A stretch of DNA of 12,453 nucleotides from a virus (lineage: Duplodnaviria; Heunggongvirae; Uroviricota; Caudoviricetes). The notes below the pieces were generated by a model, which was given only the letters and a program-made list of their open reading frames with translations, was not told the origin of the DNA and searched no databases. Position 1 is the stretch's first letter. Each line of letters starts with the position of its first letter. Below are positions 1 through 12,453 of this stretch, one piece after another. The stretch lies in IMG/VR virus record IMGVR_UViG_2526164669_000031; one strand, 5' to 3'. Position numbers and translations under genes: made by a program.

Positions 1-1260
1 ATGAAGCTCAACGCCAGACAGGTCGAGACCGCAAAGCCAAAAGACAAAACCTACAAAATGGCCGATGGTGGTGGTTTGTATCTTGAGGTTTCGGCCAAAG
101 GTTCCAAATACTGGCGCATGAAATACAGACGTCCCTCTGACAAAAAAGAGGATCGTCTCGCCTTTGGTGTTTGGCCTACTGTGACGCTTGCTCAGGCAAG
201 AGCAAAACGCGATGAAGCTAAAAAGCTTTTAGTACAGGGCATAGACCCAAAAGTCGTACAAAAAGAAGCTCAGGCCGAGAATTCGGGGGCATATACTTTT
301 GAAACTATCGCCCGAGAATGGCATGCCAGTAACAAGCGCTGGAGTGAAGACCATCGAGCGCGCGTTCTTCGCTATCTTGAGCTTTATATCTTCCCTCATA
401 TCGGTTCGTCCGACATTCGGCAGCTTAAAACCAGCCACCTGTTAGCCCCGATTAAAAAAGTTGATGCCAGTGGCAAACACGATGTCGCTCAGCGCCTGCA
501 ACAGCGCGTCACAGCCATTATGCGTTATGCCGTACAGAACGATTACATCGACTCAAATCCAGCCAGCGATATGGCTGGTGCACTATCGACAACCAAAGCG
601 CGCCATTATCCTGCTTTACCTTCTAGCCGGTTCCCTGAGTTTCTTGCACGTCTTGCTGCATATCGTGGTCGCGTAATGACGCGGATTGCGGTTGAGCTTT
701 CCTTACTAACTTTTGTGCGTTCCAGTGAGTTACGTTTCGCGCGTTGGGATGAGTTTGATTTCGATAAATCTCTCTGGCGAGTACCTGCAAAACGAGAAGA
801 AATTAAAGGAGTGCGTTATTCGTACCGTGGCATGAAGATGAAAGAAGAGCATATCGTTCCGCTTAGTCGGCAAGCGATGATTTTGCTAAACCAGTTAAAG
901 CAGATTAGTGGTGATAAAGAACTGCTTTTTCCGGGGGATCATGACGCAACTAAGGTTATGAGTGAAAATACAGTAAATAGCGCATTGCGTGCGATGGGCT
1001 ATGACACGAAAACCGAAGTTTGCGGGCACGGGTTTAGAACGATGGCGCGTGGAGCATTAGGGGAATCAGGCTTATGGAGTGATGATGCGATTGAACGTCA
1101 GCTAAGTCACTCAGAACGTAATAATGTACGTGCTGCTTATATTCATACATCTGAGCATTTAGACGAAAGGCGTTTAATGATACAGTGGTGGGCAGATTAT
1201 TTAGATAGAAATAAGAAAGAAAGTATTACACCATATGATTTTGCTAGACAACTTAAATAG
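1..1260 (+). CDS. int: Tyrosine recombinase, P4-type integrase
   Basis: 419-aa ORF. The N-terminus (AKPKDKTYKMADGGGLYLEV...KYWRMKYR) is typical of P4-family integrase arm-binding domains. The C-terminus has HGFR and RAAYIH motifs consistent with the tyrosine recombinase catalytic H-x-x-R and Y. ATG at position 1, stop TAG at 1258-1260. Confidence 0.9.
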   Translation: MKLNARQVETAKPKDKTYKMADGGGLYLEVSAKGSKYWRMKYRRPSDKKEDRLAFGVWPTVTLAQARAKRDEAKKLLVQGIDPKVVQKEAQAENSGAYTFETIAREWHASNKRWSEDHRARVLRYLELYIFPHIGSSDIRQLKTSHLLAPIKKVDASGKHDVAQRLQQRVTAIMRYAVQNDYIDSNPASDMAGALSTTKARHYPALPSSRFPEFLARLAAYRGRVMTRIAVELSLLTFVRSSELRFARWDEFDFDKSLWRVPAKREEIKGVRYSYRGMKMKEEHIVPLSRQAMILLNQLKQISGDKELLFPGDHDATKVMSENTVNSALRAMGYDTKTEVCGHGFRTMARGALGESGLWSDDAIERQLSHSERNNVRAAYIHTSEHLDERRLMIQWWADYLDRNKKESITPYDFARQLK

Positions 1261-1266
1261 TATTTT

Positions 1267-1304
1267 AACCTAGCCAGAATTTTTGTAGTCTCGCTGGCTA
1301 GGTT
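1267..1304. terminator. Inverted repeat (11-bp arms AACCTAGCCAG / CTGGCTAGGTT, 16-nt loop) between convergent int and cargo genes; possible bidirectional terminator
   Basis: Arms at 1267-1277 and 1294-1304 are perfect reverse complements. It lies in the 54-bp gap between the int stop (1260) and the stop of the minus-strand gene (1315). There is no clean U-run on either side, so terminator function is uncertain. Confidence 0.35.
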
Positions 1305-1314
1305 AATTTAAAAG

Positions 1315-1899
1315 CTAATCATTCACATCAAGAGTTAAGAGTGCGTGCATTCTTTTAACAATCATAATGATATTCAAAATTAAATGTACGCAAACATATA
1401 TTATGAGTGGGCATAAAAAATAGTATAACACATTTAATTTTAGAGTTGTGTTTATTATGCTGACATAATATTCATGTGTTTTGCCGTAAAAGAATCCTGA
1501 TTGATTGACAGGAAACAGTGATACTATAAAACACAACACGACTAACAAAACTCCACATAAAATTGAATAACAAATGTTATAATAAAGTTCAGTGAGTAAT
1601 GCTTTCTTTGATTCATAGAATGTATCAATATCTTTTCTTTGTCTTATTTTTGATTCTTGATCATATACTAAAACAAGAACGCTAAGCAGTAATGCTGTTA
1701 GTATTGCACTGAAATTAACTAATAATGATATTAAATCTTTTGTTATACCACTTCCTAGGAGTGAGAATGCGGCAGAAATAATAAATGGTAGTATTATGAA
1801 TGTAAATATATCCCATAAACTGATCTTATTAGTGTCAGCATTTTTTAAAGTTCTGAAGTGGCCTATAAGAACTTCGCATATATTTATCTTTGAACTCAT
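1315..1899 (-). CDS. Hypothetical integral membrane protein (194 aa, about 4 predicted TM helices); second gene of the AT-rich cargo cassette
   Basis: Four hydrophobic segments of about 20-25 aa (approx. residues 28-50, 56-78, 105-128, 155-180) separated by charged loops. The ATG at 1899..1897 overlaps the upstream gene's stop as TAATG. An SD-like AAGGAGAG lies 5-6 nt upstream. Stop TAG at 1317..1315. Visibly AT-rich relative to the P4 backbone. Confidence 0.7.
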   Translation of the reverse strand: MSSKINICEVLIGHFRTLKNADTNKISLWDIFTFIILPFIISAAFSLLGSGITKDLISLLVNFSAILTALLLSVLVLVYDQESKIRQRKDIDTFYESKKALLTELYYNICYSILCGVLLVVLCFIVSLFPVNQSGFFYGKTHEYYVSIINTTLKLNVLYYFLCPLIIYVCVHLILNIIMIVKRMHALLTLDVND

Positions 1900-2825
1900 T
1901 ACGCTCTCCTTATAGTAACACCACGATATAACAACTGTATATATTCCATGATAATAACATCAACAAAATTATTTAGTGATGCTATTTCCGGCATGCCATC
2001 ATAAAAAACAACTTGTTCTTCATCAAATAAAATTTCACATACAGCTCCCCTTGCTGTTGTTCCAATATGAAAAGTTCTTTTTCTGCCATTATCTAATTCA
2101 ACAACTGTTTTTACTGTTTCTCCATATTCTTTAAGGACTTCAACGAGTTGATATTGCTCCGAGCCTCTGGAGAAATAGTCTCGAAGTCTTCCAAGTCCTG
2201 CATTTCGAGGCGGTTTGATAATTAATTCTTGCTCGTTATGGCCTAGCTTTTTGGCTTGTTCAGCTACATCTGTAATGCCATGGAATTTAGTTACCTTGAT
2301 TTCTTTGGTAATGGCATCCATCCATTTTTCAATCGCTTTATCATACGCCAGAGGGTTCATTTGAATCACTAAGTTGGTAATCCTCTTGAAATAATCTGAA
2401 AACAATCTCATAAAAAGAGTTTTTATACCATCACCTCTATAGGTATGTAAAAACGCCATGCCTTCATTTACATCTCTAGGAATATAAAAATGTATGTAAT
2501 ATCTAATTATTTCAGCATTGTTTTTTGTCTTTTCGAAGTCTACATCGCCAGTTTCAATGTTTATTATGTCGGTCTTTGTTCCGTAATATCCAGACTCGAA
2601 CCATCCATATATTTCTCGATTGTTGTTATCGCGTGTAATCTCATTAAAACGAAAAACTTGTTTGGTTTCTTCAGAAAGGATATATTCTTCATTATACTGC
2701 TTAATAAATTCATCGAGTATATCAAGTAAATCATGTTCTCTGATGTTACTCAGTGCTGAATAACGTTGTTCTTTGGCTGCGTTCGGATTGTAGCAGCGGA
2801 AAAGATACGGTGCTAAAGCGTGCAT
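1899..2825 (-). CDS. Hypothetical soluble protein (308 aa), first gene of the AT-rich cargo cassette; function unknown
   Basis: Long uninterrupted ORF in an AT-rich region where random ORFs are rare. Strong SD (AAGGAGAT) 5-6 nt upstream of the ATG at 2825. Translationally coupled to the downstream membrane-protein gene. I see no Walker A or other clear catalytic motif. Confidence 0.75.
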   Translation of the reverse strand: MHALAPYLFRCYNPNAAKEQRYSALSNIREHDLLDILDEFIKQYNEEYILSEETKQVFRFNEITRDNNNREIYGWFESGYYGTKTDIINIETGDVDFEKTKNNAEIIRYYIHFYIPRDVNEGMAFLHTYRGDGIKTLFMRLFSDYFKRITNLVIQMNPLAYDKAIEKWMDAITKEIKVTKFHGITDVAEQAKKLGHNEQELIIKPPRNAGLGRLRDYFSRGSEQYQLVEVLKEYGETVKTVVELDNGRKRTFHIGTTARGAVCEILFDEEQVVFYDGMPEIASLNNFVDVIIMEYIQLLYRGVTIRRA

Positions 2826-3059
2826 TGTTATCTCCTTTTTTAATGGAGATTAGCAACTTATCACTATAAGATCAACGAACGTTCAATATGGAAAGGGATA
2901 ATTCTGCTTGGTATTTTTCTTTTAATAATATTGGGGTGCTTTAGTGCGATATTTTGATGATTAGTGTGTGTTCGGCAGTAGAAGCTATCCATAGGCAGTG
3001 ATGTTTCTGCATATAGAATGTTTTAATTATCAAACACATAATTTTCGATTGCGCGCGCA

Positions 3060-3078
3060 GTGCTTTCCCCGCCTCGCC
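3060..3078. other. cos site: P2/P4-type 19-nt cohesive-end sequence
   Basis: GTGCTTTCCCCGCCTCGCC at 3060-3078 is the exact reverse complement of the P2/P4 cohesive end GGCGAGGCGGGGAAAGCAC as I recall it. It is followed by a GC-rich hairpin (CCGCCC...GGGCGG, 3078-3097) and a T-run. Confidence 0.7.
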
Positions 3079-3180
3079 CGCCCGCTTTGCAGGGCGGTTT
3101 TAATGCAGTTGCACAGTCACGCTCAGGCTGCGCCGGGAATGGCGCGGTCTGCAGAGAATGAGGCAGGAAAACGCATGCAA

Positions 3181-3213
3181 AGCCATGCACCTTATCGATG
3201 CATGGCTTTTTTC
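3181..3213 (+). terminator. Hairpin plus T-run (intrinsic-terminator-like) between cos and the 3' end of psu
   Basis: Arms AGCCATGCA (3181-3189) and TGCATGGCT (3199-3207) with a 9-nt loop, followed by TTTTTT on the plus strand. The orientation fits a plus-strand terminator better than a terminator for psu. Confidence 0.4.
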
Positions 3214-3242
3214 AGTAAAAACGGGCGGATTTTCGGGGAATT

Positions 3243-3815
3243 TTACACAGACTGACGTGATGCCAGTTGCGCACTTTTACGCGAAAAAATCATGTTCTGC
3301 GCAGGAGTGAATTTTTCACGGCTGTCATCCACCGAAGCCGCGTCAGGCCTGAATCCGATGGTCGTTAAAATGTCGCTATCCTGTGCGGAATAATTAATTT
3401 TTTCCCCCTTCGCAAGCCAGGACAGAAGGGCTTCACGCAGGGCATCTGTGGCACGCTGTATGGCACAGTTTCGGGCAATGGCCGTCAGCTCACTGTAGCC
3501 CATCAGCTCCGCTGCCAGTGCCGCCGCCAGTGCTGTGCCGTGCTGCTGCATAAAATCATTCAGCCGGTCGCGGATGCTGATGTGCTGAACGGCTTCATGC
3601 GAACGAATATAACGACCGGCGGCCTGATTCACCTGCCATTTTCTGACTTCGATAATATTGCGTAATTCGTCCAGGCGACTGACGTTTCTGCCTTCTCCTG
3701 ACAGAAGCCGCAGATATTCCTGTTCGGCCGCAGCCAGCTCATTTTTGCGTTGCAGCCATGCTGCTTTGTTATTCTGACAGGTGTCAAAGGCCTGCTGTAA
3801 GGCTGTGCTTTCCAT
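3243..3815 (-). CDS. psu: Psu (polarity suppression / capsid decoration protein), P4-like
   Basis: 190 aa, the length I recall for P4 Psu. Position is immediately downstream of delta in the sid-delta-psu operon. ATG at 3815..3813. Confidence 0.85.
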   Translation of the reverse strand: MESTALQQAFDTCQNNKAAWLQRKNELAAAEQEYLRLLSGEGRNVSRLDELRNIIEVRKWQVNQAAGRYIRSHEAVQHISIRDRLNDFMQQHGTALAAALAAELMGYSELTAIARNCAIQRATDALREALLSWLAKGEKINYSAQDSDILTTIGFRPDAASVDDSREKFTPAQNMIFSRKSAQLASRQSV

Positions 3816-3888
3816 CGTTATCTCTTTCTCATCATGCTGAAGAATAAAAATACGGTGTGTGGCGACGGCCGGTGTTAACCGGCAGCCC

Positions 3889-4389
3889 TCATTCCAGACG
3901 CAGCGAATATGATTGTGTTTTTAACCGTACTGGCGGCAGTTCCTGTTTTTCATGCAGGCGTTCTGCCAGTTCGTCCGGCGTGACCGGGCGGACAATGAAG
4001 CGGGTGATGGTCTGAAGCGTTTTAAACACCAGACCACAGCCCGGATCCGTGCACACATAAAAACGCTCGGTGACTTCCTGAGACAGACGCCGCGATGTTC
4101 TTGACAGTGCAAGGCCTTTACATCTCCGACAACAATATCCGGTAACAAGCATTCTTTTCGGCCGTTTCATACTGCCGGAGGCCGACGTCAGTGAATCGCG
4201 GTATCTCTGTTTGCCTGAAATGTATTCCATTCCTGAATCTTTACTGTCAGAGAAAAAGCTTTCACTCGCTTCAAATGTCGCAGAGCAATAAATATTCCGG
4301 CACTGTGCAATCATTATCTTGGTGCCATCGTCCATGAAATGTGCGCGACGGGTGTGAGCAACATGTCCACACGACGGGCAGTAAATCAT
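3889..4389 (-). CDS. delta: Delta, late-gene transcriptional activator (tandem Ogr-like zinc-finger domains)
   Basis: 166 aa. Two Cys4 zinc-finger modules are visible (CPSCG...CRNIYC and CCRRC...CTDPGCG). The ATG overlaps the sid stop as ATGA at 4386-4389. Confidence 0.9.
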   Translation of the reverse strand: MIYCPSCGHVAHTRRAHFMDDGTKIMIAQCRNIYCSATFEASESFFSDSKDSGMEYISGKQRYRDSLTSASGSMKRPKRMLVTGYCCRRCKGLALSRTSRRLSQEVTERFYVCTDPGCGLVFKTLQTITRFIVRPVTPDELAERLHEKQELPPVRLKTQSYSLRLE

Positions 4390-5120
4390 GACAGCAGTCC
4401 TCTGGCCTTAAGCTCTGCTCCCTGCTGGTCTATTTTGTCCTGCCACACCTTGCGCTGTGCCGGTGTGCCTGCCACCTCATAATCCATGTGCGGGAGTGTT
4501 GCCGCTGACAGTCCGGCCAGCCGGAGAACCGGCTCGCCGGTGAGGCTGATTTGCATCTGTTTAATTTTCTGTTCCAGCGATGATTTCACCTGCTGCATGA
4601 CAGCCTTATCGGGTGCGACGTAGCCCTGATGGCCGGTGGTGTTGGCGAGCGGATTTTCCTGTACCAGGATTCTCAGATGCATTGCCCGGACAAGCGCCTC
4701 ACAGGTTTCATTCAGGGCGTGTTCCAGCTCATGCTCTGCATACAGACTCAGAAGGTGATGATGTGCCTTCCGGTAGGCGGTGGCCGTGCTGTCACACGCC
4801 CCTTTCAGGCGTTCACGTTCGAAATTCAGCACCACGGCCAGATTGTCATATTCCTGTACCAGCTCCCGGCGTGCCACGCGCTCAATGTGGCGCTGTTTCA
4901 GCTCGTCGCTCAGGACACCACCGGCTGCACGAAAGGCCGTGCGCCAGTCGTCAGCGTCATTTCCGTCGGCCTGCGCCAGCGCATTTTTTTCCTGCTCTGC
5001 CCGTTCAATGGCCGTGACGGTCTCATCCATCAGGCGGGCGTTCTCAAGGTGGGCGGCTCTGGCCTTTTCCAGTTGTGCCAGTGCGGGTTGCAGATATTCA
5101 GGGATGGTGTTGTCAGACAT
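4386..5120 (-). CDS. sid: Sid (capsid size determination external scaffold), P4-like
   Basis: The track ORF 4386..5138 begins with a GTG. The in-frame ATG at 5120..5118 (MSDNTIPEYLQ...) gives 244 aa, the recalled P4 Sid length, and has a GAGGAG SD 7 nt upstream. The protein is coiled-coil rich and is the first gene downstream of the late-promoter motifs. Confidence 0.85.
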   Translation of the reverse strand: MSDNTIPEYLQPALAQLEKARAAHLENARLMDETVTAIERAEQEKNALAQADGNDADDWRTAFRAAGGVLSDELKQRHIERVARRELVQEYDNLAVVLNFERERLKGACDSTATAYRKAHHHLLSLYAEHELEHALNETCEALVRAMHLRILVQENPLANTTGHQGYVAPDKAVMQQVKSSLEQKIKQMQISLTGEPVLRLAGLSAATLPHMDYEVAGTPAQRKVWQDKIDQQGAELKARGLLS

Positions 5121-5154
5121 TTTCCGGCTCCTCGTCACTTCAGGTTAAGAAAAT

Positions 5155-5210
5155 TGTGACGTACACCGGACAACAACACGACGCATTGCAGATGTGCCAG
5201 CCCTGACACA
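5155..5210 (-). promoter_or_regulatory. Psid-like late promoter region with two TGT-N12-ACA activator (Delta/Ogr) sites
   Basis: Exact TGT-N12-ACA dyads at 5155-5172 and 5193-5210. Relative to a minus-strand start near 5146 they would be centred at about -18 and -55, the arrangement I recall for P4 late promoters. The sid ATG is at 5120. Confidence 0.6.
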
Positions 5211-5289
5211 GGAGACTCATCCTCAGACCGGCAAGCCAGGAAAAGGTCGCAGGAAAAACCGGCTTACTGTTTGTTTTTTTATGTTTTAC

Positions 5290-5393
5290 TGTTCACCTCT
5301 GTTCACCTTAATAAAAAAGATAAGTAATACAGTAAGTTAAAGGGTGAACAATCGCAGTAATGACTGTTCACCGTCTGTTCACCACTGTTCACC
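5290..5393. repeat. Iteron cluster (six copies of TGTTCACC/GGTGAACA); putative ori for the alpha protein
   Basis: TGTTCACC at 5290, 5300, 5365, 5376 and 5386, and inverted GGTGAACA at 5343. The same octamer recurs in the crr-like repeats downstream of alpha. The AT-rich tract 5400-5500 is adjacent. Confidence 0.7.
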
Positions 5394-5551
5394 CGTTGAT
5401 GGGCTTTTTATGCTGTTTATTACTGTTTATTTTTATTAATTAACTGAAATAAATAAGAAAAAACAATTTGCATTTCACTATAAAAAATTCCAGGTCCTTC
5501 AGAACCCTTTGAGACCCTTCCAGTCCGGATGGATAAAAAACACACAGCCAT

Positions 5552-5569
5552 TGTAAGGTTGCCGGAACA
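5552..5569 (+). promoter_or_regulatory. PLL-like late promoter activator site (TGT-N12-ACA) upstream of vis
   Basis: Exact TGT-N12-ACA at 5552-5569. It would be centred about 55 nt upstream of a plus-strand start near 5615, leaving a 57-nt leader to the vis ATG at 5672. Confidence 0.5.
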
Positions 5570-5671
5570 AATTCCCCCTGTTGCGTCTGCTGAAAATATT
5601 CACAAAATAAAGCGCTACCCGAAGCCGGACGGACTTATCCGGTGCTGTATGGACATTAACGAGGTAGCCCG

Positions 5672-5938
5672 ATGCAAGCTGTTTTTTCTTCCCCGTCTCC
5701 CGCCCCTGTTACGCCACTGATGCCGCTGCCGGACATCACGCAGGAGCGTTTTTTACGTCTGCCGGAAGTGATGCACCTGTGCGGCCTGTCACGCTCGACC
5801 ATCTATGAACTCATCCGTAAGGGGGAATTTCCGCCGCAGGTGAGTCTTGGCGGTAAAAATGTGGCCTGGCTGCACTCTGAAGTCACCGCATGGATGGCCG
5901 GACGCATTGCCGGACGCAAACGGGGGTACGACGCATGA
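5672..5938 (+). CDS. vis: AlpA/Vis-family small DNA-binding protein (excisionase-like late regulator)
   Basis: 88 aa. The C-terminal two-thirds ([47 protein letters not shown]) is a typical AlpA-family helix-turn-helix. GAGG SD 7 nt upstream of the ATG at 5672. An alternative in-frame start at 5720 would give 72 aa. Confidence 0.8.
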
Positions 5939-6066
5939 TGATGCCCGCTCTGCAAAAACGCCCTTTTTCTGGCTTGCCTTTTTCCGGCATTTGCGGATAT
6001 AGTTTTTCCGCTGCCGCAAAATCGGCAGCCGGGCGTGAGAACCCGTGTAACTCGAAGGCGACATAT

Positions 6067-6088
6067 GACGCGCCATGCGTCTTTTTTT
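6067..6088 (+). terminator. Intrinsic-terminator-like hairpin (GACGC-GCCAT-GCGTC followed by 7 T) in the immunity-like region
   Basis: 5-bp GC-rich stem at 6067-6071 / 6077-6081 with a 5-nt loop, then TTTTTTT at 6082-6088. It lies inside a long frame-1 ORF (5890-6525) of doubtful coding value. Confidence 0.4.
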
Positions 6089-6327
6089 GTGTCGCAATCA
6101 ACGCCACAGAGCGCCAGATTATGGTGTGGCGTGTGGTTTGCCGTGCAGGTATGATCCTGTTCGCAATCGCATGTTATGCCACTGAGTCAATGGTAGCTCA
6201 GGCGGGGCAGCCTCCGGGCTGGCCGGTATTCTTCGAGGCCGGTATTCTCACCCCCGTCTGGGCTATCGCCATCGAGCGTGAGAACTCCGGCGATAGCAGT
6301 TATTTGCTACTCGAAGGAGACTGCCTT

Positions 6328-6525
6328 ATGGCTACAACCCTTACCCCCTCACACCCTGAATTTGTCTTTGTGTTTGCGGCTGTCCGTCGCGCAGACCGTC
6401 ATCCCCGTATCTGTATGCTTCGCACCGTCGCCGGTGATGAACGCAGCGCCCGCCGTTCCCTTGTCCGTGACTATGTGCTCTCCCTTGCTGCCCGTCTGCC
6501 GGTGGTGGAGGTGTCCCGTGCGTAA
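6328..6525 (+). CDS. Hypothetical small protein (65 aa) immediately upstream of epsilon
   Basis: ATG at 6328 is preceded by a strong SD (AAGGAGA, 6314-6320). Its stop TAA at 6523-6525 overlaps the putative GTG start of the next gene. Confidence 0.35.
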
Positions 6526-6805
6526 TAAAAAAGCCCCTCAGACCGTCTCAGCGCGTCATGACGCCCGTGAACACCTCAGCATTGAGGCTTACCATAAGCT
6601 CAACCGCGCCAGCGCCGTATCCCGGTTTGTTGGGGGTGATTTGATTCACCGTGAACTCTCAGGCCTGCATCAGCTCTACATTCCGCATATTTTCAGCTAC
6701 CTGAATGAAGATATTGATTTTGTGCTGAATGAGCTGAAAGCCAAAGGCCTGTGCCGCGATTTTCTCGCCCAGCAGAAAGACCGGGGAGACAGGACGCATG
6801 TTTGA
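6518..6805 (+). CDS. Epsilon-like protein (candidate helper-prophage derepression factor), 95 aa from a GTG start
   Basis: GTG at 6518 with GGAGG 6 nt upstream gives 95 aa, the length I recall for P4 epsilon. The track ORF begins at an upstream GTG (6278) in the same frame. The stop overlaps the next gene's ATG (ATGTTTGA at 6798-6805). Confidence 0.5.
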
Positions 6806-7253
6806 TTTTCCCCAGCCCGGTGAGATTTACCGTTCTGCCGGTTTTCCCGATGTGGCCGTGGTCGGCATTCTGGAAGACGGTATTCCGTGGGAAATGCCGT
6901 ACCGCTGCCCGGACATTGTCTGGAACCCGTACCGCCGTAAATTCAGTATCCTTGTGCGTATCCTCGATGACGGGCGCACCACAGACATCCCGCTGGGGCG
7001 TTTTCTGCGGGAATTTACCTGTGACCGTCCTGACCTGTTTAAACGCAGCCCCGTAAACCGGCATGCGGTACTGAAAGAAATGGCCGGAGACCCGGAATTA
7101 CAGAAATGGCGGGAGAAATATCTGGATATTTACCCGCAGGACCCTGTTCCGGTCAGCCGGGCGGCACCGGTGGCGCGGGAATGGCGGGAAATTCCCCGCA
7201 CGGAGCCTGACCCGGAAATCACCCCGGATAACAGTTACCGCAATTATCTGTAA
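6798..7253 (+). CDS. Hypothetical protein, P4 orf151-like
   Basis: 151 aa, SD GGGGAGA upstream, translationally coupled to the upstream gene, and at the position of orf151 in the P4 left operon. Confidence 0.7.
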   Translation: MFDFPQPGEIYRSAGFPDVAVVGILEDGIPWEMPYRCPDIVWNPYRRKFSILVRILDDGRTTDIPLGRFLREFTCDRPDLFKRSPVNRHAVLKEMAGDPELQKWREKYLDIYPQDPVPVSRAAPVAREWREIPRTEPDPEITPDNSYRNYL

Positions 7254-7388
7254 TTAAAAAACGACACCCGAAAAATTAAATGTGCGTATTCGCGCAGGGA
7301 TACGCACGTCTTCAGGAGACGCAGATATGCCTTATCAGTTAATGCAACCGGCACGGAATGCAGTCATCTGTCACAGGGAGGAAAACAA

Positions 7389-7709
7389 ATGAAAACACCC
7401 TTACCGCCCGTCTTACGCGCTGCCCTTTACCGTCGCGCTGTCGCCTGTGCCTGGCTGACCGTGTGCGAACGTCAGCACCGCTACCCGCATCTCACCCTTG
7501 AGTCACTGGAGGCGGCCATCGCCGCTGAGCTGGAAGGCTTTTATCTGCGCCAGCACGGTGAGGAAAAAGGGCGTCAGATAGCCTGTGCCCTGCTGGAAGA
7601 TTTAATGGAATCCGGCCCCCTGAAGGCCGCGCCGTCGCTGTCCTTTCTCGGGCTGGTTGTGATGGATGAACTCTGTGCCCGTCACATAAAAGCGCCGGTA
7701 CTGCACTGA
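7389..7709 (+). CDS. Hypothetical protein, 106 aa (P4 orf106-like)
   Basis: ATG at 7389 with GGGAGG SD (7375-7380). Ends 15 nt before the alpha gene. Confidence 0.65.
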
Positions 7710-7723
7710 AGGAGAACAACACC

Positions 7724-10057
7724 ATGAAAATGAACGTAACTGCCACCGTCAGCCATGCGCTCGGCCACTGGCCGCGTATTCTCCCGTCGCTGGGGATTCA
7801 GGTGCTGAAGAACCGTCATCAGCCCTGTCCGGTCTGTGGCGGAAGTGACCGCTTCCGTTTTGATGACAGGGAGGGGCGCGGCACCTGGTACTGCAATCAG
7901 TGTGGTGCCGGTGACGGCCTGAAACTGGTTGAAAAGGTGTTTGGTGTTTCCCCGTCCGACGCGGCCGCAAAGGTGGCTGCCGTGACCGGCTGCCTGCCCC
8001 CGGCTGACCCGGCAGTGACGGCCGCCGCCGGTGCTGAAACAGAAGCCGCCCGGAAGAACGCCGCCGCACTGGCACAAACCCTGATGGCGAAAACCCGTCC
8101 CGGAACCGGTAACGCCTACCTGACCCGCAAGGGCTTTCCCGGCCGGGAATGCCGGATGCTGACCGGCACACACAGAGCCGGTGGCGTGAGCTGGCGCGCC
8201 GGTGACCTTGTGGTGCCACTGTATGACGACAGCGGCGAACTGGTTAACCTTCAGTTAATCAGTGCTGACGGCCGTAAGCGCACCCTGAAAGGCGGACAGG
8301 TCAGGGGCACCTGTCACACCCTTGAAGGACAGAATCAGGCCGGAAAACGTCTGTGGATAGCGGAGGGATATGCGACCGCACTTACCGTACATCACCTGAC
8401 CGGGGAAACGGTGATGGTGGCGCTTTCTTCCGTGAACCTCCTTTCTCTGGCCAGCCTTGCCCGGCAGAAGCACCCCGCCTGTCAGATTGTCCTTGCTGCT
8501 GACCGTGACCTCAGCGGTGACGGCCAGAAAAAAGCCGCCGCAGCCGCAGATGCGTGTGAAGGTGTTGTTGCCCTGCCACCGGTCTTCGGTGACTGGAATG
8601 ATGCCTTCACGCAGTACGGCGGGGAGGCCACCCGTAAGGCCATTTATGATGCCATCCGGCCACCGGCTGAAAGCCCGTTCGACACCATGAGCGAAGCGGA
8701 GTTTTCCGCCATGAGTACCAGCGAAAAGGCCATGCGTATCTATGAGCATTACGGCGAGGCGCTCGCGGTCGATGCCAACGGCCAGCTTCTGTCCCGCTAT
8801 GAAAATGGTGTCTGGAAGGTGCTGCCGCCACAGGACTTTGCCCGGGATGTGGCCGGGCTGTTTCAGCGGCTGCGTGCGCCGTTCTCCTCCGGGAAGGTGG
8901 CCTCCGTGGTGGACACCCTGAAGCTGATTATTCCGCAACAGGAAGCCCCCTCCCGCCGCCTGATTGGCTTTCGTAACGGCGTGCTCGACACGCAGAACGG
9001 TACGTTCCACCCGCACAGTCCGTCACACTGGATGCGCACCCTGTGCGATGTGGATTTCACCCCGCCGGTGGAAGGGGAAACGCTGGAAACCCACGCCCCC
9101 GCGTTCTGGCGCTGGCTTGACCGTGCTGCCGGTGGTCGTGCGGAAAAACGCGACGTGATTCTGGCCGCACTGTTTATGGTGCTGGCAAACCGCTACGACT
9201 GGCAGCTCTTTCTGGAGGTGACCGGTCCCGGCGGCAGCGGCAAAAGTATCATGGCCGAAATAGCCACCCTGCTGGCCGGGGAGGATAACGCCACGTCGGC
9301 CACCATCGAGACGCTGGAATCCCCGCGTGAACGTGCCGCGTTAACTGGCTTCTCACTGATACGCCTGCCGGACCAGGAAAAATGGAGCGGCGACGGTGCC
9401 GGACTCAAGGCCATCACCGGCGGCGATGCGGTGTCCGTTGACCCGAAATACCGGGATGCGTACTCCACGCACATCCCGGCGGTGATTCTGGCCGTGAACA
9501 ATAACCCGATGCGCTTCACCGACCGCAGCGGCGGCGTGTCACGCCGGCGGGTGATTATTCACTTCCCGGAACAGATAGCCCCGCAGGAGCGCGACCCGCA
9601 GCTTAAGGACAAAATCACCCGCGAGCTGGCGGTCATCGTGCGTCACCTGATGCAGAAATTCAGCGACCCGATGCTCGCCCGGTCACTGCTTCAGTCCCAG
9701 CAGAACTCAGACGAGGCACGGAACATCAAACGGGATGCCGACCCGACGTTTGATTTTATCGGCTATCTGGAAACCCTGCCGCAGACCAGCGGCATGTATA
9801 TGGGGAACGCCAGTATCATCCCGCGTAATTACCGTAAATACCTCTATCACGCCTATCTGGCCTACATGGAGGCAAACGGCTACCGGAATGTACTCAGTCT
9901 GAAAATGTTCGGGCTGGGGCTGCCGGTGATGCTGAAGGAATACGGACTGAATTACGAGAAGCGCCATACCAAACAGGGGATACAGACCAACCTGACGCTG
10001 AAAGAGGAAAGCTACGGCGACTGGCTGCCAAAATGTGACGACCCTGCAACAACCTGA
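7724..10057 (+). CDS. alpha: Alpha protein: primase-helicase with origin-binding domain
   Basis: 777 aa, the recalled length of P4 alpha. N-terminal zinc-binding primase motif (CPVCGGSDRFRFDDREGRGTWYCNQCGAG), a TOPRIM-like segment (IAEGYATAL...VLAADRD) and a Walker A motif (GPGGSGKS, nt about 9226-9249). SD GAAGGAGA at 7708-7715. Confidence 0.95.
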   Translation: MKMNVTATVSHALGHWPRILPSLGIQVLKNRHQPCPVCGGSDRFRFDDREGRGTWYCNQCGAGDGLKLVEKVFGVSPSDAAAKVAAVTGCLPPADPAVTAAAGAETEAARKNAAALAQTLMAKTRPGTGNAYLTRKGFPGRECRMLTGTHRAGGVSWRAGDLVVPLYDDSGELVNLQLISADGRKRTLKGGQVRGTCHTLEGQNQAGKRLWIAEGYATALTVHHLTGETVMVALSSVNLLSLASLARQKHPACQIVLAADRDLSGDGQKKAAAAADACEGVVALPPVFGDWNDAFTQYGGEATRKAIYDAIRPPAESPFDTMSEAEFSAMSTSEKAMRIYEHYGEALAVDANGQLLSRYENGVWKVLPPQDFARDVAGLFQRLRAPFSSGKVASVVDTLKLIIPQQEAPSRRLIGFRNGVLDTQNGTFHPHSPSHWMRTLCDVDFTPPVEGETLETHAPAFWRWLDRAAGGRAEKRDVILAALFMVLANRYDWQLFLEVTGPGGSGKSIMAEIATLLAGEDNATSATIETLESPRERAALTGFSLIRLPDQEKWSGDGAGLKAITGGDAVSVDPKYRDAYSTHIPAVILAVNNNPMRFTDRSGGVSRRRVIIHFPEQIAPQERDPQLKDKITRELAVIVRHLMQKFSDPMLARSLLQSQQNSDEARNIKRDADPTFDFIGYLETLPQTSGMYMGNASIIPRNYRKYLYHAYLAYMEANGYRNVLSLKMFGLGLPVMLKEYGLNYEKRHTKQGIQTNLTLKEESYGDWLPKCDDPATT

Positions 10058-10064
10058 CCCACCT

Positions 10065-10088
10065 GACCGGCATCTGCCGGTCTTTTTT
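10065..10088 (+). terminator. Rho-independent terminator of the alpha operon
   Basis: GACCGG-CATCTG-CCGGTC hairpin (10065-10082) followed by TTTTTT (10083-10088), 8 nt after the alpha stop. Confidence 0.7.
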
Positions 10089-10104
10089 ATCCCTGAATTC
10101 CCCG

Positions 10105-10406
10105 CAGGTGAACAATCCACTGTTCACCCTTCACCGTATATTCACCCGTTATCACACTGAAATTAAAAGAGAAAAATGAAAGGTGAACAGTGTGAACAAT
10201 CAAATCAAAAAAAACTTTTTTTCTCCCTGTGTGATTTTCAGTGCAGGGGACTAATCGCCGGTATGAGTCACACCGGCAGAATGCCGGAGGTGAAGAATCG
10301 AATGTTCACCCTTCACCCATTATTCACCACCTATCACTCTGAAATAAAAGGAGAAAACAGAAAGGTGAACAGTGTGAACAGTTCTTTCGAAAAAAAATTT
10401 TTTATG
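10105..10406. repeat. crr-like cis replication region: two direct repeats of about 120 bp, each carrying TGTTCACC-type iterons and ending in an A/T tract
   Basis: Repeat 1 is about 10105-10228 and repeat 2 about 10287-10406. They share GGTGAA..ATGTTCACCCTTCACC...GAAAGGTGAACAGTGTGAACA and a terminal A(7-8)T(6-8) tract. Iterons at 10107, 10121, 10182, 10303 and 10364, with TGTGAACA variants at 10191 and 10373. Confidence 0.75.
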
Positions 10407-10424
10407 TGGATAAAAGATGCACTG

Positions 10425-10451
10425 GTTTGGATCCGAGCTACGGATCCAAAC
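10425..10451. repeat. Perfect palindrome GTTTGGATCCG-AGCTA-CGGATCCAAAC (11-bp arms)
   Basis: Arms at 10425-10435 and 10441-10451 are exact reverse complements. No adjacent U-run. Located between crr and the attR-like sequence. Confidence 0.5.
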
Positions 10452-10594
10452 TTACTGATTAAAAATGATTTAACTTTCCGATTTATTGATGGGCTGAAAA
10501 TAGATTGGTCAGAAAAACAGTGGGGGCACAAAAGGGGGCATATTTCATTGTTGTGTTTTATTATTTGTTTTTTTATCATTAACTTATTTTGATG

Positions 10595-10634
10595 TTTGAG
10601 TCCGGCCTTCGCACCTTCGCACCTTCGCACCATC
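10595..10634 (+). other. attR-like remnant of a tRNA 3' end (T-arm and acceptor end) with a triplicated CCTTCGCAC 9-mer
   Basis: TTTGAGTCCGGCCTTCGCACC...CACCA resembles the T-arm and acceptor end of tRNA-Leu (leuX; recalled 3' end ...GTTCGAGTCCGGCCTTCGGCACCA), the known P4 target. CCTTCGCAC occurs three times in tandem (10606-10632). The sequence is in the same orientation as int. Confidence 0.55.
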
Positions 10635-10647
10635 GGAACATCAATAG

Positions 10648-10667
10648 ACGTCAACGGACGTTTTTTT
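10648..10667 (+). terminator. Small hairpin plus T7 run directly after the tRNA-like fragment (possible native tRNA terminator)
   Basis: ACGTC-AACG-GACGT (10648-10661) followed by TTTTTTT. The stem is only 5 bp. Confidence 0.35.
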
Positions 10668-10833
10668 ATGACTGAAATCCGCGCCACACAAGGCTTTTCG
10701 CTATTTTTCGCTCAACCTAAGTCAACCTACATCAACTTACTGATGTGGATACAGCTACAGCTGCGGCTATATCCCGATTCGATAATGTTTGTACCCACAC
10801 AAAACCCTTGAAAGGCTACAAGGCTGAAATTCT

Positions 10834-11084: not shown

Positions 11085-11318
11085 TCAAACTGCATCCTCG
11101 TAGACTGTTCCACTACAATAATCGAAAAGGCGTGGATGTCCATTCAGGTATCCCGCTAATACGTATAGCAATAACAATGGCTTATGCGGCGCGCGCTGTT
11201 CACCCTTGTGCCAGATTTTTATATTGGCAATTGCCTGCTGTAGCGATTTACTGGAAGCCATTGATATCCCTGGCAGTGAAATAATTGCGATCATGCTCGC
11301 AAATTTTCGGCTGTTCAA
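11085..11318 (-). CDS. Short ORF (77 aa) in the chromosomal flank; possible gene fragment or pseudogene
   Basis: ORF only. It sits downstream of and on the same strand as the nanS-like gene, in an AT-rich stretch. Confidence 0.25.
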   Translation of the reverse strand: MNSRKFASMIAIISLPGISMASSKSLQQAIANIKIWHKGEQRAPHKPLLLLYVLAGYLNGHPRLFDYCSGTVYEDAV

Positions 11319-11472
11319 GCCTGCAAGTGAAGATATATTACTTTGATCTCATTTGTTTTTTTGCTGCCTGTGTACCCTAATTGCCATGCGATGCTGCACC
11401 GACGCTAACCACCGTTTACGCCGGAGGAGTTAAAAGCGTTGATGGATGCGAATAAATCAAATTAATGAACGC

Positions 11473-12453
11473 TCACTTTTCGCCCCAAAACTGCAAAATT
11501 GCTTCTACAAACCTGTCAGAAATAATCCCCCGACGGGCTGCCGCGCTGAAATGACTGCTTCGCAGTGCCGTCGTCCAGTTCTCCGGTGACCGGTACGCTG
11601 AACCGTAATATCCCGTGCTTAAATCGTCCGGGTCTTCATCAGGCGCGTTCGTCAGTCCTCTTTCACCTTGTTGCTGGAAGTCGACGAAAATAATATTGGC
11701 TAAAACATTATTTTGATAATTGCCATAAATAACTTCATACGCATGAGGGAAATTTTCTTTCCAGTACCAGGTGGTATCGCCGCAAAACCACGGCGCGTCA
11801 GTAATATTATTAAGCTGAGAATGGTATTGTTTTAGATCCCTACGAAAGGCTTCAATCATATGATTAAAGTGTTGAGGGTGTGACGCGTAGTCACTGGTCA
11901 TTAAGTCAAATTCGCCTTGCATCCAGCATACGCCGAGGAATTTGTTCTGCGGATTTTTTGCCAGTGCGGCTCGCGTTCTGCTGACTAAATCCTGGTACAG
12001 CGGAGTATCCGTTCCCCAACGACAAGCATCATGGCTGGCTCCGTGCCGTTCTGAATATGTCCCTTCGCTGCCCGCGGTAAAAGCCGATCCGCCACGGCAA
12101 CATGGAACGATGAGAACCCCTGCATTATCAGGAATAAAGGGTAGTAATTTCCGTGCAATATGCAGTGCCTGGCCAACGGTGCCGTACTGTGTTTGATGAT
12201 TCGTTGCCAGAGGATGGTGATAACCCTGCATATCCTGAACATCGTGTGGGCAGTGAGTCAGTGGAATAATGTCGTTAAAGTGACATGACGGGCCTCCGGG
12301 ATGCGTATGCGCAAATCTCGCTAATTGTTTAATTCTGGGATGAGGCGCATCTTCCCTGTCCGGTAATGGCAGTCCTTCGCCATACGCCATGGCATTAGAC
12401 TGACCAGCAACGGTAAGAACATAGTAATAATCGGGCGATATTATTGCGTTCAT
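11473..12453 (-). CDS. nanS: Sialate O-acetylesterase (SGNH/SASA-family), NanS-like; the start codon is at the window edge
   Basis: 326 aa. An N-terminal GQSN(A)MAYGEG motif is characteristic of SGNH/SASA esterases. Length and sequence are consistent with E. coli NanS (YjhS) as I recall it. ATG at 12453..12451. Confidence 0.7.
   Translation of the reverse strand: MNAIISPDYYYVLTVAGQSNAMAYGEGLPLPDREDAPHPRIKQLARFAHTHPGGPSCHFNDIIPLTHCPHDVQDMQGYHHPLATNHQTQYGTVGQALHIARKLLPFIPDNAGVLIVPCCRGGSAFTAGSEGTYSERHGASHDACRWGTDTPLYQDLVSRTRAALAKNPQNKFLGVCWMQGEFDLMTSDYASHPQHFNHMIEAFRRDLKQYHSQLNNITDAPWFCGDTTWYWKENFPHAYEVIYGNYQNNVLANIIFVDFQQQGERGLTNAPDEDPDDLSTGYYGSAYRSPENWTTALRSSHFSAAARRGIISDRFVEAILQFWGEK

What the first reader, a model, noticed from the sequence alone, without database searches (positions are those of the whole stretch)
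10595..10668. attR-like tRNA 3' end with a triplicated 9-mer, followed by a terminator-like hairpin
The sequence resembles the T-arm and CCA-proximal end of tRNA-Leu, the displaced original 3' end expected at the distal junction of a tRNA-integrated island, and it is followed by what could be the native tRNA terminator. The acceptor-stem 9-mer CCTTCGCAC is present three times in tandem, which would disrupt the core if this is attR and might reduce excision efficiency. It could also be a footprint of repeated integration or slippage.
Basis: partly seen in the sequence, partly recalled or inferred. Interest (0 to 1): 0.55.

Follow-up and report, generated by a model that had tools for sequence, protein, structure and literature searches.

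The report
P4 prophage right junction, repeat-bearing
This is the ordinary right-hand junction (attR) of a P4-like satellite prophage inserted in the E. coli leuX tRNA gene, lying against the stump of an older island; its "triplicated" motif is a strain-variable 8-bp tandem repeat found in hundreds of E. coli genomes, not damage peculiar to this prophage.

Summary
Window 10598-10632 reads GAGTCCGG(CCTTCGCA)x3CCA. That is the 20-bp P4 attachment core (the 3' end of tRNA-Leu leuX) with one G missing and two extra 8-bp units. The period is 8, not 9. Window 1-10597 is a P4-like satellite prophage, and an intact leuX lies 163 bp upstream of position 1 in near-identical genomes, so "attR" is correct.

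Three points change the interpretation.
- The missing G is the norm for every non-tRNA copy of this core across Enterobacterales. It is not a lesion.
- The 8-mer is a VNTR with 1-5 copies. It is tied to one E. coli right-flank haplotype and sits behind at least seven unrelated left-hand elements, so slippage explains it and it has not prevented island turnover.
- The sequence to the right, hairpin included, is not native chromosome. It is a 187-bp stump of the integrase-proximal arm of another P4-family island. The hairpin is that family's conserved intrinsic terminator, supported by compensatory changes, and it is weakened in this copy.

My favoured inference, which is not proven, is that strand exchange occurs in the last bases of the tRNA gene (GCACC). 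Overall this is an ordinary junction with modest new detail.

The parts
1..1260 (+). P4-family integrase gene (419 aa) at the leuX-proximal (attL) end of the prophage
   Evidence: Pfam Arm-DNA-bind_3, Phage_int_M and Phage_integrase. Annotated as a tyrosine recombinase in the near-identical genome. Matches P4 int.
5672..5938 (+). AlpA/Vis-type excisionase-like gene (88 aa)
   Evidence: Pfam Phage_AlpA, E = 7e-21. It occupies the position of P4 orf88/vis; the Vis assignment rests on my own knowledge.
7724..10057 (+). P4 alpha primase-helicase gene (777 aa), the last gene before the junction
   Evidence: About 98% identical to the P4 alpha region.
10350..10597 (+). P arm of attP/attR (end of crr plus spacer), contiguous with P4 up to the core
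   Evidence: 98.9% identical to P4 NC_001609 4075-4344, which is annotated as crr, attP arm repeats and attP core.
10520..10543 (+). Two adjacent 12-bp arm-type Int-binding repeats (GTGGGGGCACAA, AAGGGGGCATAT)
   Evidence: Correspond to the P4 features 'attP arm sequence repeat' at L001 871-882 and 883-894.
10598..10632 (+). attR core: GAGTCCGG(CCTTCGCA)x3CCA. This is the P4/leuX 20-bp core minus one G, plus two extra 8-bp units.
10606..10629 (+). 8-bp tandem repeat CCTTCGCA, three exact copies (a VNTR with 1-5 copies in other strains)
   Evidence: TRF, chance test, and copy-number variants in L006, L007, L009, L010, L144 and L155-L157.
10633..10819 (+). Stump of the integrase-proximal (P') arm of an older P4-family island; its integrase gene has been deleted
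   Evidence: 163 of 187 positions are identical to the leuX-to-integrase spacer of strain 33-6. The architecture is the same as the K-12 leuX-intB spacer. An integrase starts about 199 nt after CCA in 63 of 69 species.
10646..10667 (+). Intrinsic-terminator-like hairpin (AGACGTC-AACG-GACGTTT) and T-run, belonging to the older island's arm
   Evidence: Pattern scan. RNAalifold on 24 flank variants gives 7 pairs, 4 with compensatory double changes. The window copy is weakened by a C-to-T change: -6.8 versus -10.8 kcal/mol.
10713..10740 (+). Three TCAAC(C/T)TA motifs at 10-bp spacing; probably arm-type sites for the lost integrase (inference)
   Evidence: TRF period 10, 2.9 copies. Conserved just upstream of the integrase gene in strain 33-6.

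Best explanation
Window 10595-10668 is the right junction (attR) of a P4-like satellite prophage (window 1 to about 10632) integrated in leuX. It is joined to a 187-bp stump of an older P4-family island, not to native chromosome.

Shown:
(i) The left side is the P4 P arm with its Int arm-type sites.
(ii) The tRNA-like core lacks one G, as does essentially every non-tRNA copy of this core in Enterobacterales.
(iii) The 8-bp unit CCTTCGCA is a copy-number-variable tandem repeat (three copies here, 1-5 elsewhere). It is linked to one E. coli right-flank haplotype and shared by strains carrying quite different elements on the left.
(iv) The hairpin plus T-run is the conserved intrinsic terminator that follows leuX directly wherever that island family sits next to the tRNA. 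Here it is displaced about 10.7 kb from the tRNA and weakened.

Inferred:
- The repeat arose by replication slippage in a copy that is under no tRNA selection. The one-G-short form creates CC...CC and CACC...CACC micro-homology that would favour this.
- The one-G-short copy is the element-borne (P-side) half of attP in this integrase family.
- Strand exchange takes place in the last bases of the gene (GCACC/A). The extra 8-mers therefore lie just to the right of the crossover, stay with the chromosome, and are inherited through successive island replacements.
- On this model the repeat need not block excision.
For: Identity as a prophage:
- 70% of the window aligns to P4 at 97% identity, including int, sid, delta, psu and alpha.
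- The P arm is 98.9% identical to P4, up to and into the annotated attP core.
- Intact leuX followed by the P4-type P' arm lies 163 bp upstream in the locus L002, which is identical to the window over 1-9129 (1 mismatch at 9130, 83 clustered in about 10000-10216), and in 10 contigs that encode the identical integrase.

The right flank is island-borne:
- In strain 33-6 and in K-12, leuX is followed by the same architecture and then an integrase.
- The anchor CACCATCGGAACATCAATAGAC occurs in 85 species. An integrase starts about 199 nt downstream in 63 of 69 tRNA-adjacent loci.

The missing G is the norm:
- 16 of 16 non-tRNA copies in the anchor scan, which is unbiased with respect to G status.
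- 37 IMG/VR attR sites with more than 10 different right flanks, against one canonical GG site with a P4-type arm.
- 4 of 4 tandem P4a-P4b junctions, where the scan pattern allowed either form.
- E. coli loci L010, L015 and L016.

VNTR:
- 1 copy (L010), 2 (L009, same P4-like arm; L157), 3 (window, IAI1, O103:H2, YY76-1, strain 582, L156), 4 (MB52, E203449, L043, L155), 5 (FDAARGOS_1337).
- 28 of 60 evenly spaced rows out of 1275 matching E. coli records carry the three-copy form, and 724 records match the core plus right-flank query at 99% or better.
- In IMG/VR the repeat occurs only with this right flank.

Terminator: 7 pairs, 4 with compensatory changes.
Against: - The P4 reference attP has the canonical GG core. 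If the missing G is element-borne, P4 itself is a minority variant.
- No free attP of a wild P4-like element could be found to settle this.
- The crossover position is inferred from comparative data only.
- If the overlap includes the base after GCACC, the repeat allele (GCACC-T) would be heterologous to attL (GCACC-A) and could still impair excision.
- The three-copy frequency is an estimate from a sample of BLAST rows, not a full census.
- No empty site of either predicted form occurs in 5,426 genomes, so excision from this allele has not been observed.
Confidence: 0.8

Rival explanations
1. Chromosome-linked scar model. Strand exchange occurs to the left of the missing G, within CCGGCCTTCG. 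The one-G-short, repeat-bearing segment is then the displaced and mutated 3' end of the tRNA gene, and it stays on the chromosome. The functional 3' end of leuX is always supplied by the resident first element. Excision of this prophage would leave a non-functional leuX.
For: - The P4 reference attP is canonical GG, as this model expects.
- The repeat is linked to the right flank and shared by unrelated left elements.
- No empty site exists among 5,426 genomes, which is compatible with selection against a dead leuX.
Against: - It cannot explain why the same single-G loss is found behind more than 10 unrelated right flanks and in about 15 genera.
- It also cannot explain the loss at 4 of 4 junctions whose right neighbour is a P4-type element, which must itself have supplied a canonical end when it was first in line.
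- That pattern would need many independent identical deletions.
- Host-specific T-loop variants persist next to identical island arms (L028, L042, L054, L069). This excludes a crossover in the T-loop and narrows the room for this model.
Confidence: 0.25
2. One reading: the triplication is a footprint of repeated integration events, or a lesion that locks the prophage in place by destroying the attR core.
For: - The core is interrupted relative to the 20-bp P4 core.
- No excision product was seen in any genome.
Against: - Tyrosine recombinases exchange strands conservatively and do not add 8-bp units (established mechanism).
- Copy number varies 2-4 behind the same P4-type arm.
- The repeat-bearing site is joined precisely to at least seven different elements, so it has repeatedly served in site-specific exchange.
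- int and the AlpA/Vis-like gene are intact.
Confidence: 0.07
3. The hairpin is the ancestral (native) leuX terminator and the flank is ancestral chromosome.
For: The same spacer and hairpin directly follow intact leuX in 69 species.
Against: - A P4-family integrase gene follows about 199 nt downstream in 63 of those 69 loci.
- The roughly 50-nt flank is identical in genera as distant as Xenorhabdus, Morganella and Pantoea, which fits horizontal spread rather than vertical descent.
- E. coli K-12 has a different variant of the same architecture ahead of intB.
Confidence: 0.08

Closest known systems
Satellite phage P4 attP/attR at E. coli leuX (NC_001609 annotation; Pierson & Kahn 1987, cited from memory)
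   Same: The P arm is 98.9% identical, including both arm-type repeats and crr. The core is the same from GAGTCCGGCCTTCG onward, and CACCA is retained. Gene order is the same: int ... psu, delta, sid ... alpha, att.
   Different: The core has one G fewer and two extra 8-bp units. The prophage carries a different two-gene cargo between int and psu. The right neighbour is another island's arm.
Left end of cryptic prophage PR-Y / KpLE2 (leuX-intB spacer) in E. coli K-12, and its intact relatives such as strain 33-6
   Same: The architecture after the CCA end is the same: a 12-17 nt spacer, a 6-7 bp hairpin, a T7 run, then (G/A)TGCCTGAAATCC, TCAAC-type repeats, and an integrase start about 200 nt downstream.
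   Different: Only 187 bp survive in the window and the integrase is gone. The hairpin carries a weakening C-to-T change. The site is separated from leuX by the P4-like prophage.
Tandem arrays of genomic islands at tRNA genes with displaced tRNA fragments (Islander-type analysis, PMC4383910)
   Same: A regenerated tRNA lies at one end and a tRNA-like fragment marks each internal or distal junction.
   Different: Here the fragment is systematically one base shorter than the tRNA and, in one E. coli haplotype, carries a VNTR.
Slipped-strand VNTR / simple-sequence contingency repeats
   Same: Perfect head-to-tail units with copy-number polymorphism among close relatives.
   Different: There is no coding or promoter context, and no evidence of any phase-variable phenotype.

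Membership tests
attR of a P4-family satellite prophage in leuX | A P4 gene set (int, psu, delta, sid, alpha) lies between the two junctions | tested here: met
   70% of the window aligns to P4 at 97% identity.
attR of a P4-family satellite prophage in leuX | A P arm with arm-type Int repeats lies immediately left of the core | tested here: met
   Window 10520-10543 equals the annotated P4 arm repeats.
attR of a P4-family satellite prophage in leuX | [quoted passage not shown] | tested here: met
   leuX is intact 163 bp upstream in near-identical genomes. The repeat is imperfect: 14 nt, then one G missing, then two extra 8-mers, then CACCA.
attR of a P4-family satellite prophage in leuX | Int/Vis-dependent excision regenerates attP and attB | not testable with these tools
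   No circular form or empty site was found in the databases.
Rho-independent (intrinsic) terminator | A G+C-containing stem-loop immediately followed by a T-run | tested here: met
   7 pairs, 3 of them G-C, then T7. Weak in this copy at -6.8 kcal/mol, z = -1.5.
Rho-independent (intrinsic) terminator | The structure is conserved through compensatory changes in relatives | tested here: met
   4 of 7 pairs show double compensatory changes across 24 flank variants.
Rho-independent (intrinsic) terminator | It terminates a defined transcript | not testable with these tools
   In relatives it lies 13-20 nt after the leuX CCA end. In the window the tRNA is about 10.7 kb away.
Native (ancestral) tRNA 3' flank | The flank is vertically inherited chromosome, not part of a mobile element | tested here: not met
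   An integrase lies about 199 nt downstream in 63 of 69 species, and the flank is identical across distant genera.
Slippage-type VNTR | Exact tandem units whose number differs between otherwise identical loci | tested here: met
   1-5 copies, and 2-4 copies behind the same P4-type arm.

The most novel reading that the evidence does not exclude
The one-G-short tRNA copy may be a conserved, functional feature of attP in all leuX-targeting P4-family elements. If so, strand exchange lies in the last 5-6 bp of the tRNA gene (GCACC/A). The 14-bp tRNA-like segment in attP would then be only a recombinase-binding mimic that never rebuilds the tRNA. The 8-bp VNTR would be a chromosomal scar just right of the crossover that has been handed from island to island in one E. 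coli lineage. That would give a natural, sequence-readable marker of the crossover point and of island turnover at a major integration hotspot.
Probability: 0.5. Interest if true: 0.4.

Novelty: new member of a known kind. Interest (0 to 1): 0.3.

Why it matters
As a locus it is ordinary: a P4-like prophage junction at a textbook integration hotspot. Three by-products may be useful.
1. In this integrase family the island-side copy of the leuX core is systematically one base shorter than the tRNA. This constrains where strand exchange occurs. It also explains why reported direct repeats at leuX islands are shorter than the full tRNA 3' end.
2. An 8-bp VNTR at the distal boundary of the leuX hotspot is carried by roughly a tenth of complete E. 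coli genomes. It could serve as a marker of lineage and of island turnover.
3. Islands of the intB family bring their own terminator for the tRNA gene they rebuild.

None of these alters current understanding of P4 biology.

Tried and rejected
- tRNA search in the window: none found.
- Search for another copy of the core in the window, up to 3 mismatches: none found.
- Synthetic 'dead leuX / empty site' query (leuX 5' part joined to the repeat allele) against 5,426 E. coli genomes. No full-length match. The best hits were a phage-borne 58-nt tRNA copy and intact leuX followed by the single-copy flank.
- Search for a free attP (P arm, core, P' arm) to read the G status directly. None in PLSDB plasmids and none in E. 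coli genomes. The 4 hits in JGI metagenome contigs are tandem prophages on chromosomal contigs. Look-up of the exact integrase returned only chromosomal leuX sites.
- Initial idea that the missing G was a one-off mutation linked to this right flank: rejected.
- Initial idea that the right flank was native chromosome: rejected.
- Literature. Williams 2002, on integrase sublocations, is not held in the library. A full-text search for the core sequence found only papers quoting the canonical P4 site. Nothing was found on the one-G-short copy or on the 8-bp repeat.
- Pfam, PADLOC and PHROGs on the two cargo ORFs gave no functional assignment.

Full report
WHAT IS IN THE SEQUENCE

Window 10595-10668 reads TTTGAGTCCGG-CCTTCGCA-CCTTCGCA-CCTTCGCA-CCA-TCGGAACATCAATAGACGTCAACGGACGTTTTTTTA. 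Tandem Repeats Finder reports 10606-10635 with period 8, 3.8 copies and consensus CCTTCGCA. The octamer occurs four times in the window against 0.42 expected, and no shuffle out of 200 reached that number. Three of the four occurrences are adjacent, at 10606, 10614 and 10622. A simple terminator scan finds a 7-pair hairpin at 10646-10663 followed by T7. ARAGORN finds no tRNA gene in the window.

WHAT SURROUNDS IT

- The window is E. coli chromosome. Strain OkiPb01675 (locus L002) is identical over window 1-9129. It differs at position 9130 and in a cluster of 83 positions around 10000-10216, and it is 100% identical over the 551 bp around the finding.
- Window 1 to about 10600 is a P4-like satellite prophage. 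It contains int (1-1260), two unknown cargo genes, psu, delta, sid, an AlpA/Vis-type gene (5672-5938) and alpha (7724-10057). 70% of the window aligns to phage P4 at 97% identity.
- The 270 bp up to position 10618 are 98.9% identical to P4 4075-4344. That stretch of P4 is annotated as crr, two 'attP arm sequence repeats' and the 20-bp 'attP core' GAGTCCGGCCTTCGGCACCA.
- In L002, and in ten contigs that encode the identical integrase, an intact leuX tRNA-Leu(CAA) ends 163 bp before window position 1. It is followed by the P4-type P' arm TTAGTACTTCC....
- No other copy of the core occurs in the window, even allowing 3 mismatches.

THE RIGHT FLANK IS NOT NATIVE CHROMOSOME

- In E. coli strain 33-6 an intact leuX is followed directly by TCGGAACATCAATAGACGTCAACGGACGTCTTTTTTTGTGCCTGAAATCC..., then TCAACCTA-type repeats, then a 421-aa tyrosine integrase.
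- Window 10633-10819 matches that spacer at 163 of 187 positions and then diverges exactly where the integrase gene should begin.
- E. coli K-12 has the same architecture, with a different sequence variant, between leuX and intB of cryptic prophage PR-Y.
- An exact scan for CACCATCGGAACATCAATAGAC in one genome per species found 85 loci in about 30 genera of Enterobacterales. A homologue of the 33-6 integrase starts a median of 199 nt after the CCA end in 63 of the 69 loci where the left context is the tRNA.

The flank is therefore the integrase-proximal arm of a widespread island family. Only a stump of it remains in the window. Further right lie pseudogene fragments and nanS.

THE HAIRPIN

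Twenty-four sequence variants of this arm all carry a hairpin ending at the T-run. RNAalifold gives 7 pairs, and 4 of them show double compensatory changes, for example GACGTC/GACGTC, GACCTC/GAGGTC, GCCGCT/AGCGGC and GTCACC/GGTGGC. This is good evidence for a real intrinsic terminator that the island supplies for the tRNA gene it abuts. The window copy has a C-to-T change that turns the closing G-C pair into G-U and lowers stability from -10.8 to -6.8 kcal/mol. It also now lies about 10.7 kb from leuX.

THE MISSING G IS THE RULE, NOT A LESION

- The anchor scan is unbiased with respect to the G. In the 69 loci whose left context is a tRNA, the core is canonical CCTTCGGCACCA. In all 16 loci whose left context is an island arm, it is CCTTCG-CACCA.
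- IMG/VR holds 37 sites with GAGTCCGGCCTTCGCACCA. All are attR sites of P4-like prophages (int ... alpha, then core), and they have more than ten different right flanks. Only one site has a P4-type arm and the canonical GG.
- A metagenome scan that allowed either form, next to a P4-type P' arm, found four tandem P4a-P4b junctions. All four are one G short.
- E. coli single-copy examples (L010, L015, L016) show the same.
- The P4 reference attP itself is GG.

THE 8-MER IS A VNTR LINKED TO ONE CHROMOSOMAL HAPLOTYPE

With the same right flank, the copy numbers are:
- 1 copy: GF4-3.
- 2 copies: TOE17 (the same P4-type arm as the window) and L157.
- 3 copies: the window, IAI1, O103:H2 12009, YY76-1, strain 582 and L156.
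- 4 copies: MB52, E203449, L043 and L155.
- 5 copies: FDAARGOS_1337.
A degenerate two-unit form occurs in fECg99.1.

The left partners of the repeat include three P4-like subtypes, a DUF262/Abi defence island (IAI1), CbtA/YeeU-type islands (O103, FDAARGOS_1337) and a tailed prophage carrying a 58-nt tRNA copy (strains 582 and E203449). Each is joined precisely at the core.

Of 5,426 complete E. coli genomes, 1,269 match the core plus flank, and 724 records do so at 99% identity or better. In an evenly spaced sample of 60 rows, 28 carry the three-copy form, 4 carry four or more copies, and 1 carries two. In IMG/VR the repeat occurs only with this flank.

Copy-number polymorphism behind the same arm points to replication slippage, not repeated integration. 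Because all units lack the G, expansion must have followed the one-G-short state.

MECHANISM

Two models fit parts of the data.

Model A (favoured, about 0.55-0.6).
- The one-G-short copy is the element-borne, P-side half of attP. Strand exchange occurs in GCACC(A), the only block to the right of the indel that attP and attB share.
- This explains the universality of the missing G regardless of right neighbour.
- It explains why the tRNA copy is always canonical.
- It explains the tolerance of further P-side variation among families (GCGGTGCGGCC..., CGGTTCCGGCC..., GAGTCCGTCC...).
- It explains why the extra 8-mers, which lie just right of the first CACC, stay with the chromosome while left elements change.
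- It requires that the P4 reference (GG) be a minority variant, like L139.

Model B (about 0.25).
- The crossover is left of the G and the short or repeated segment is a chromosomal scar. Excision would then leave a dead leuX.
- It fits the P4 reference and the right-linkage of the repeat.
- It needs many independent identical deletions to explain.

Host-specific T-loop variants next to identical island arms (L028, L042, L054, L069) exclude a T-loop crossover under either model. No empty site of either predicted form exists among 5,426 genomes, and no free attP could be found. The choice between the models therefore remains an inference.

Under both models the repeat-bearing site has served repeatedly in site-specific exchange. 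This argues against the idea that the triplication locks the element in place. The effect on excision efficiency is untested.

COMPARISON WITH WHAT IS KNOWN

- The locus is a member of a well-known kind: P4 attR at leuX, in tandem with a decayed intB-type island.
- I found no paper describing the one-G-short P-side core or the 8-bp VNTR. The library lacks the key older papers, Pierson & Kahn 1987 and Williams 2002, so prior description cannot be excluded.
- The often-quoted 18-bp direct repeat of the leuX island PAI II of strain 536 (from memory) is what one would get if identity stops at the missing G.

VERDICT

'attR' is correct. 'Native end plus native terminator' and 'damage from repeated integration' are not supported. 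This is an ordinary junction with a few modestly new details. Interest is 0.3.

Noticed in passing
window 1315-1899 and 1899-2825 (- strand): A two-gene cargo operon (194 aa and 308 aa) sits between int and psu, in the variable slot of P4-like satellites. It has no Pfam or PADLOC hit and matches only PHROG families of unknown function (15250, 15676). The pair travels with this exact integrase in many E. coli genomes. From general knowledge this slot often holds anti-phage systems, so the pair is a candidate uncharacterised defence system.
   Followed up: partly
L017-L101 (genome contigs); window 10633-10680: The roughly 50 nt after the leuX CCA end (TCGGAACATCAATAGACGTCAACGGACGTCTTTTTTTGTGCCTGAAATCC) are nearly invariant in 85 species from about 30 genera, including Xenorhabdus, Photorhabdus, Morganella, Pantoea and Klebsiella. 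This marks a very widely spread leuX island family whose integrase starts about 199 nt downstream.
   Followed up: partly
window 10713-10740: Three TCAAC(C/T)TA motifs occur at exact 10-bp spacing in the stump of the older island. They are conserved just upstream of the integrase gene in strain 33-6. They are probably orphaned arm-type binding sites of the deleted integrase.
   Followed up: partly
window about 10000-10216 (3' end of alpha, its terminator, and the start of crr): All but one of the 84 differences between the window and the otherwise identical OkiPb01675 locus cluster here, with no net length change. This could be a compensating indel pair or a recombined patch in the crr repeat region.
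   Followed up: no
window 11473-12453 (- strand): This ORF is a full-length 326-aa sialate O-acetylesterase (NanS-like; Pfam SASA). However, RefSeq annotates only a 567-nt truncated pseudogene at this place in the near-identical genome.
   Followed up: no
window 11112-11261 and 11343-11405: Pseudogene fragments of a phosphorothioate-dependent restriction endonuclease and of an HNH endonuclease lie between the island stump and nanS. The HNH gene is intact (651 nt) in other strains with the same junction (MB52, TOE17, strain 582), so further decay has occurred in this lineage.
   Followed up: partly
L144 2500-2560 (E. coli E203449) and L011 3001-3060 (strain 582): A tailed prophage ends at the same repeat-bearing site with a 58-nt copy of the tRNA-Leu 3' part. 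In E203449 the variable-loop bases (TTGAAAG) differ from E. coli leuX and resemble those of another genus (L042). That copy is therefore phage-borne, not displaced host sequence.
   Followed up: partly
L063 about 3380-3462 (Pantoea sp. IMH): The island arm is preceded by a canonical GG core and a complete T arm with a TTTGAGT loop. The sequence further upstream is not leuX-like. It may be a different or island-borne tRNA-like gene.
   Followed up: no
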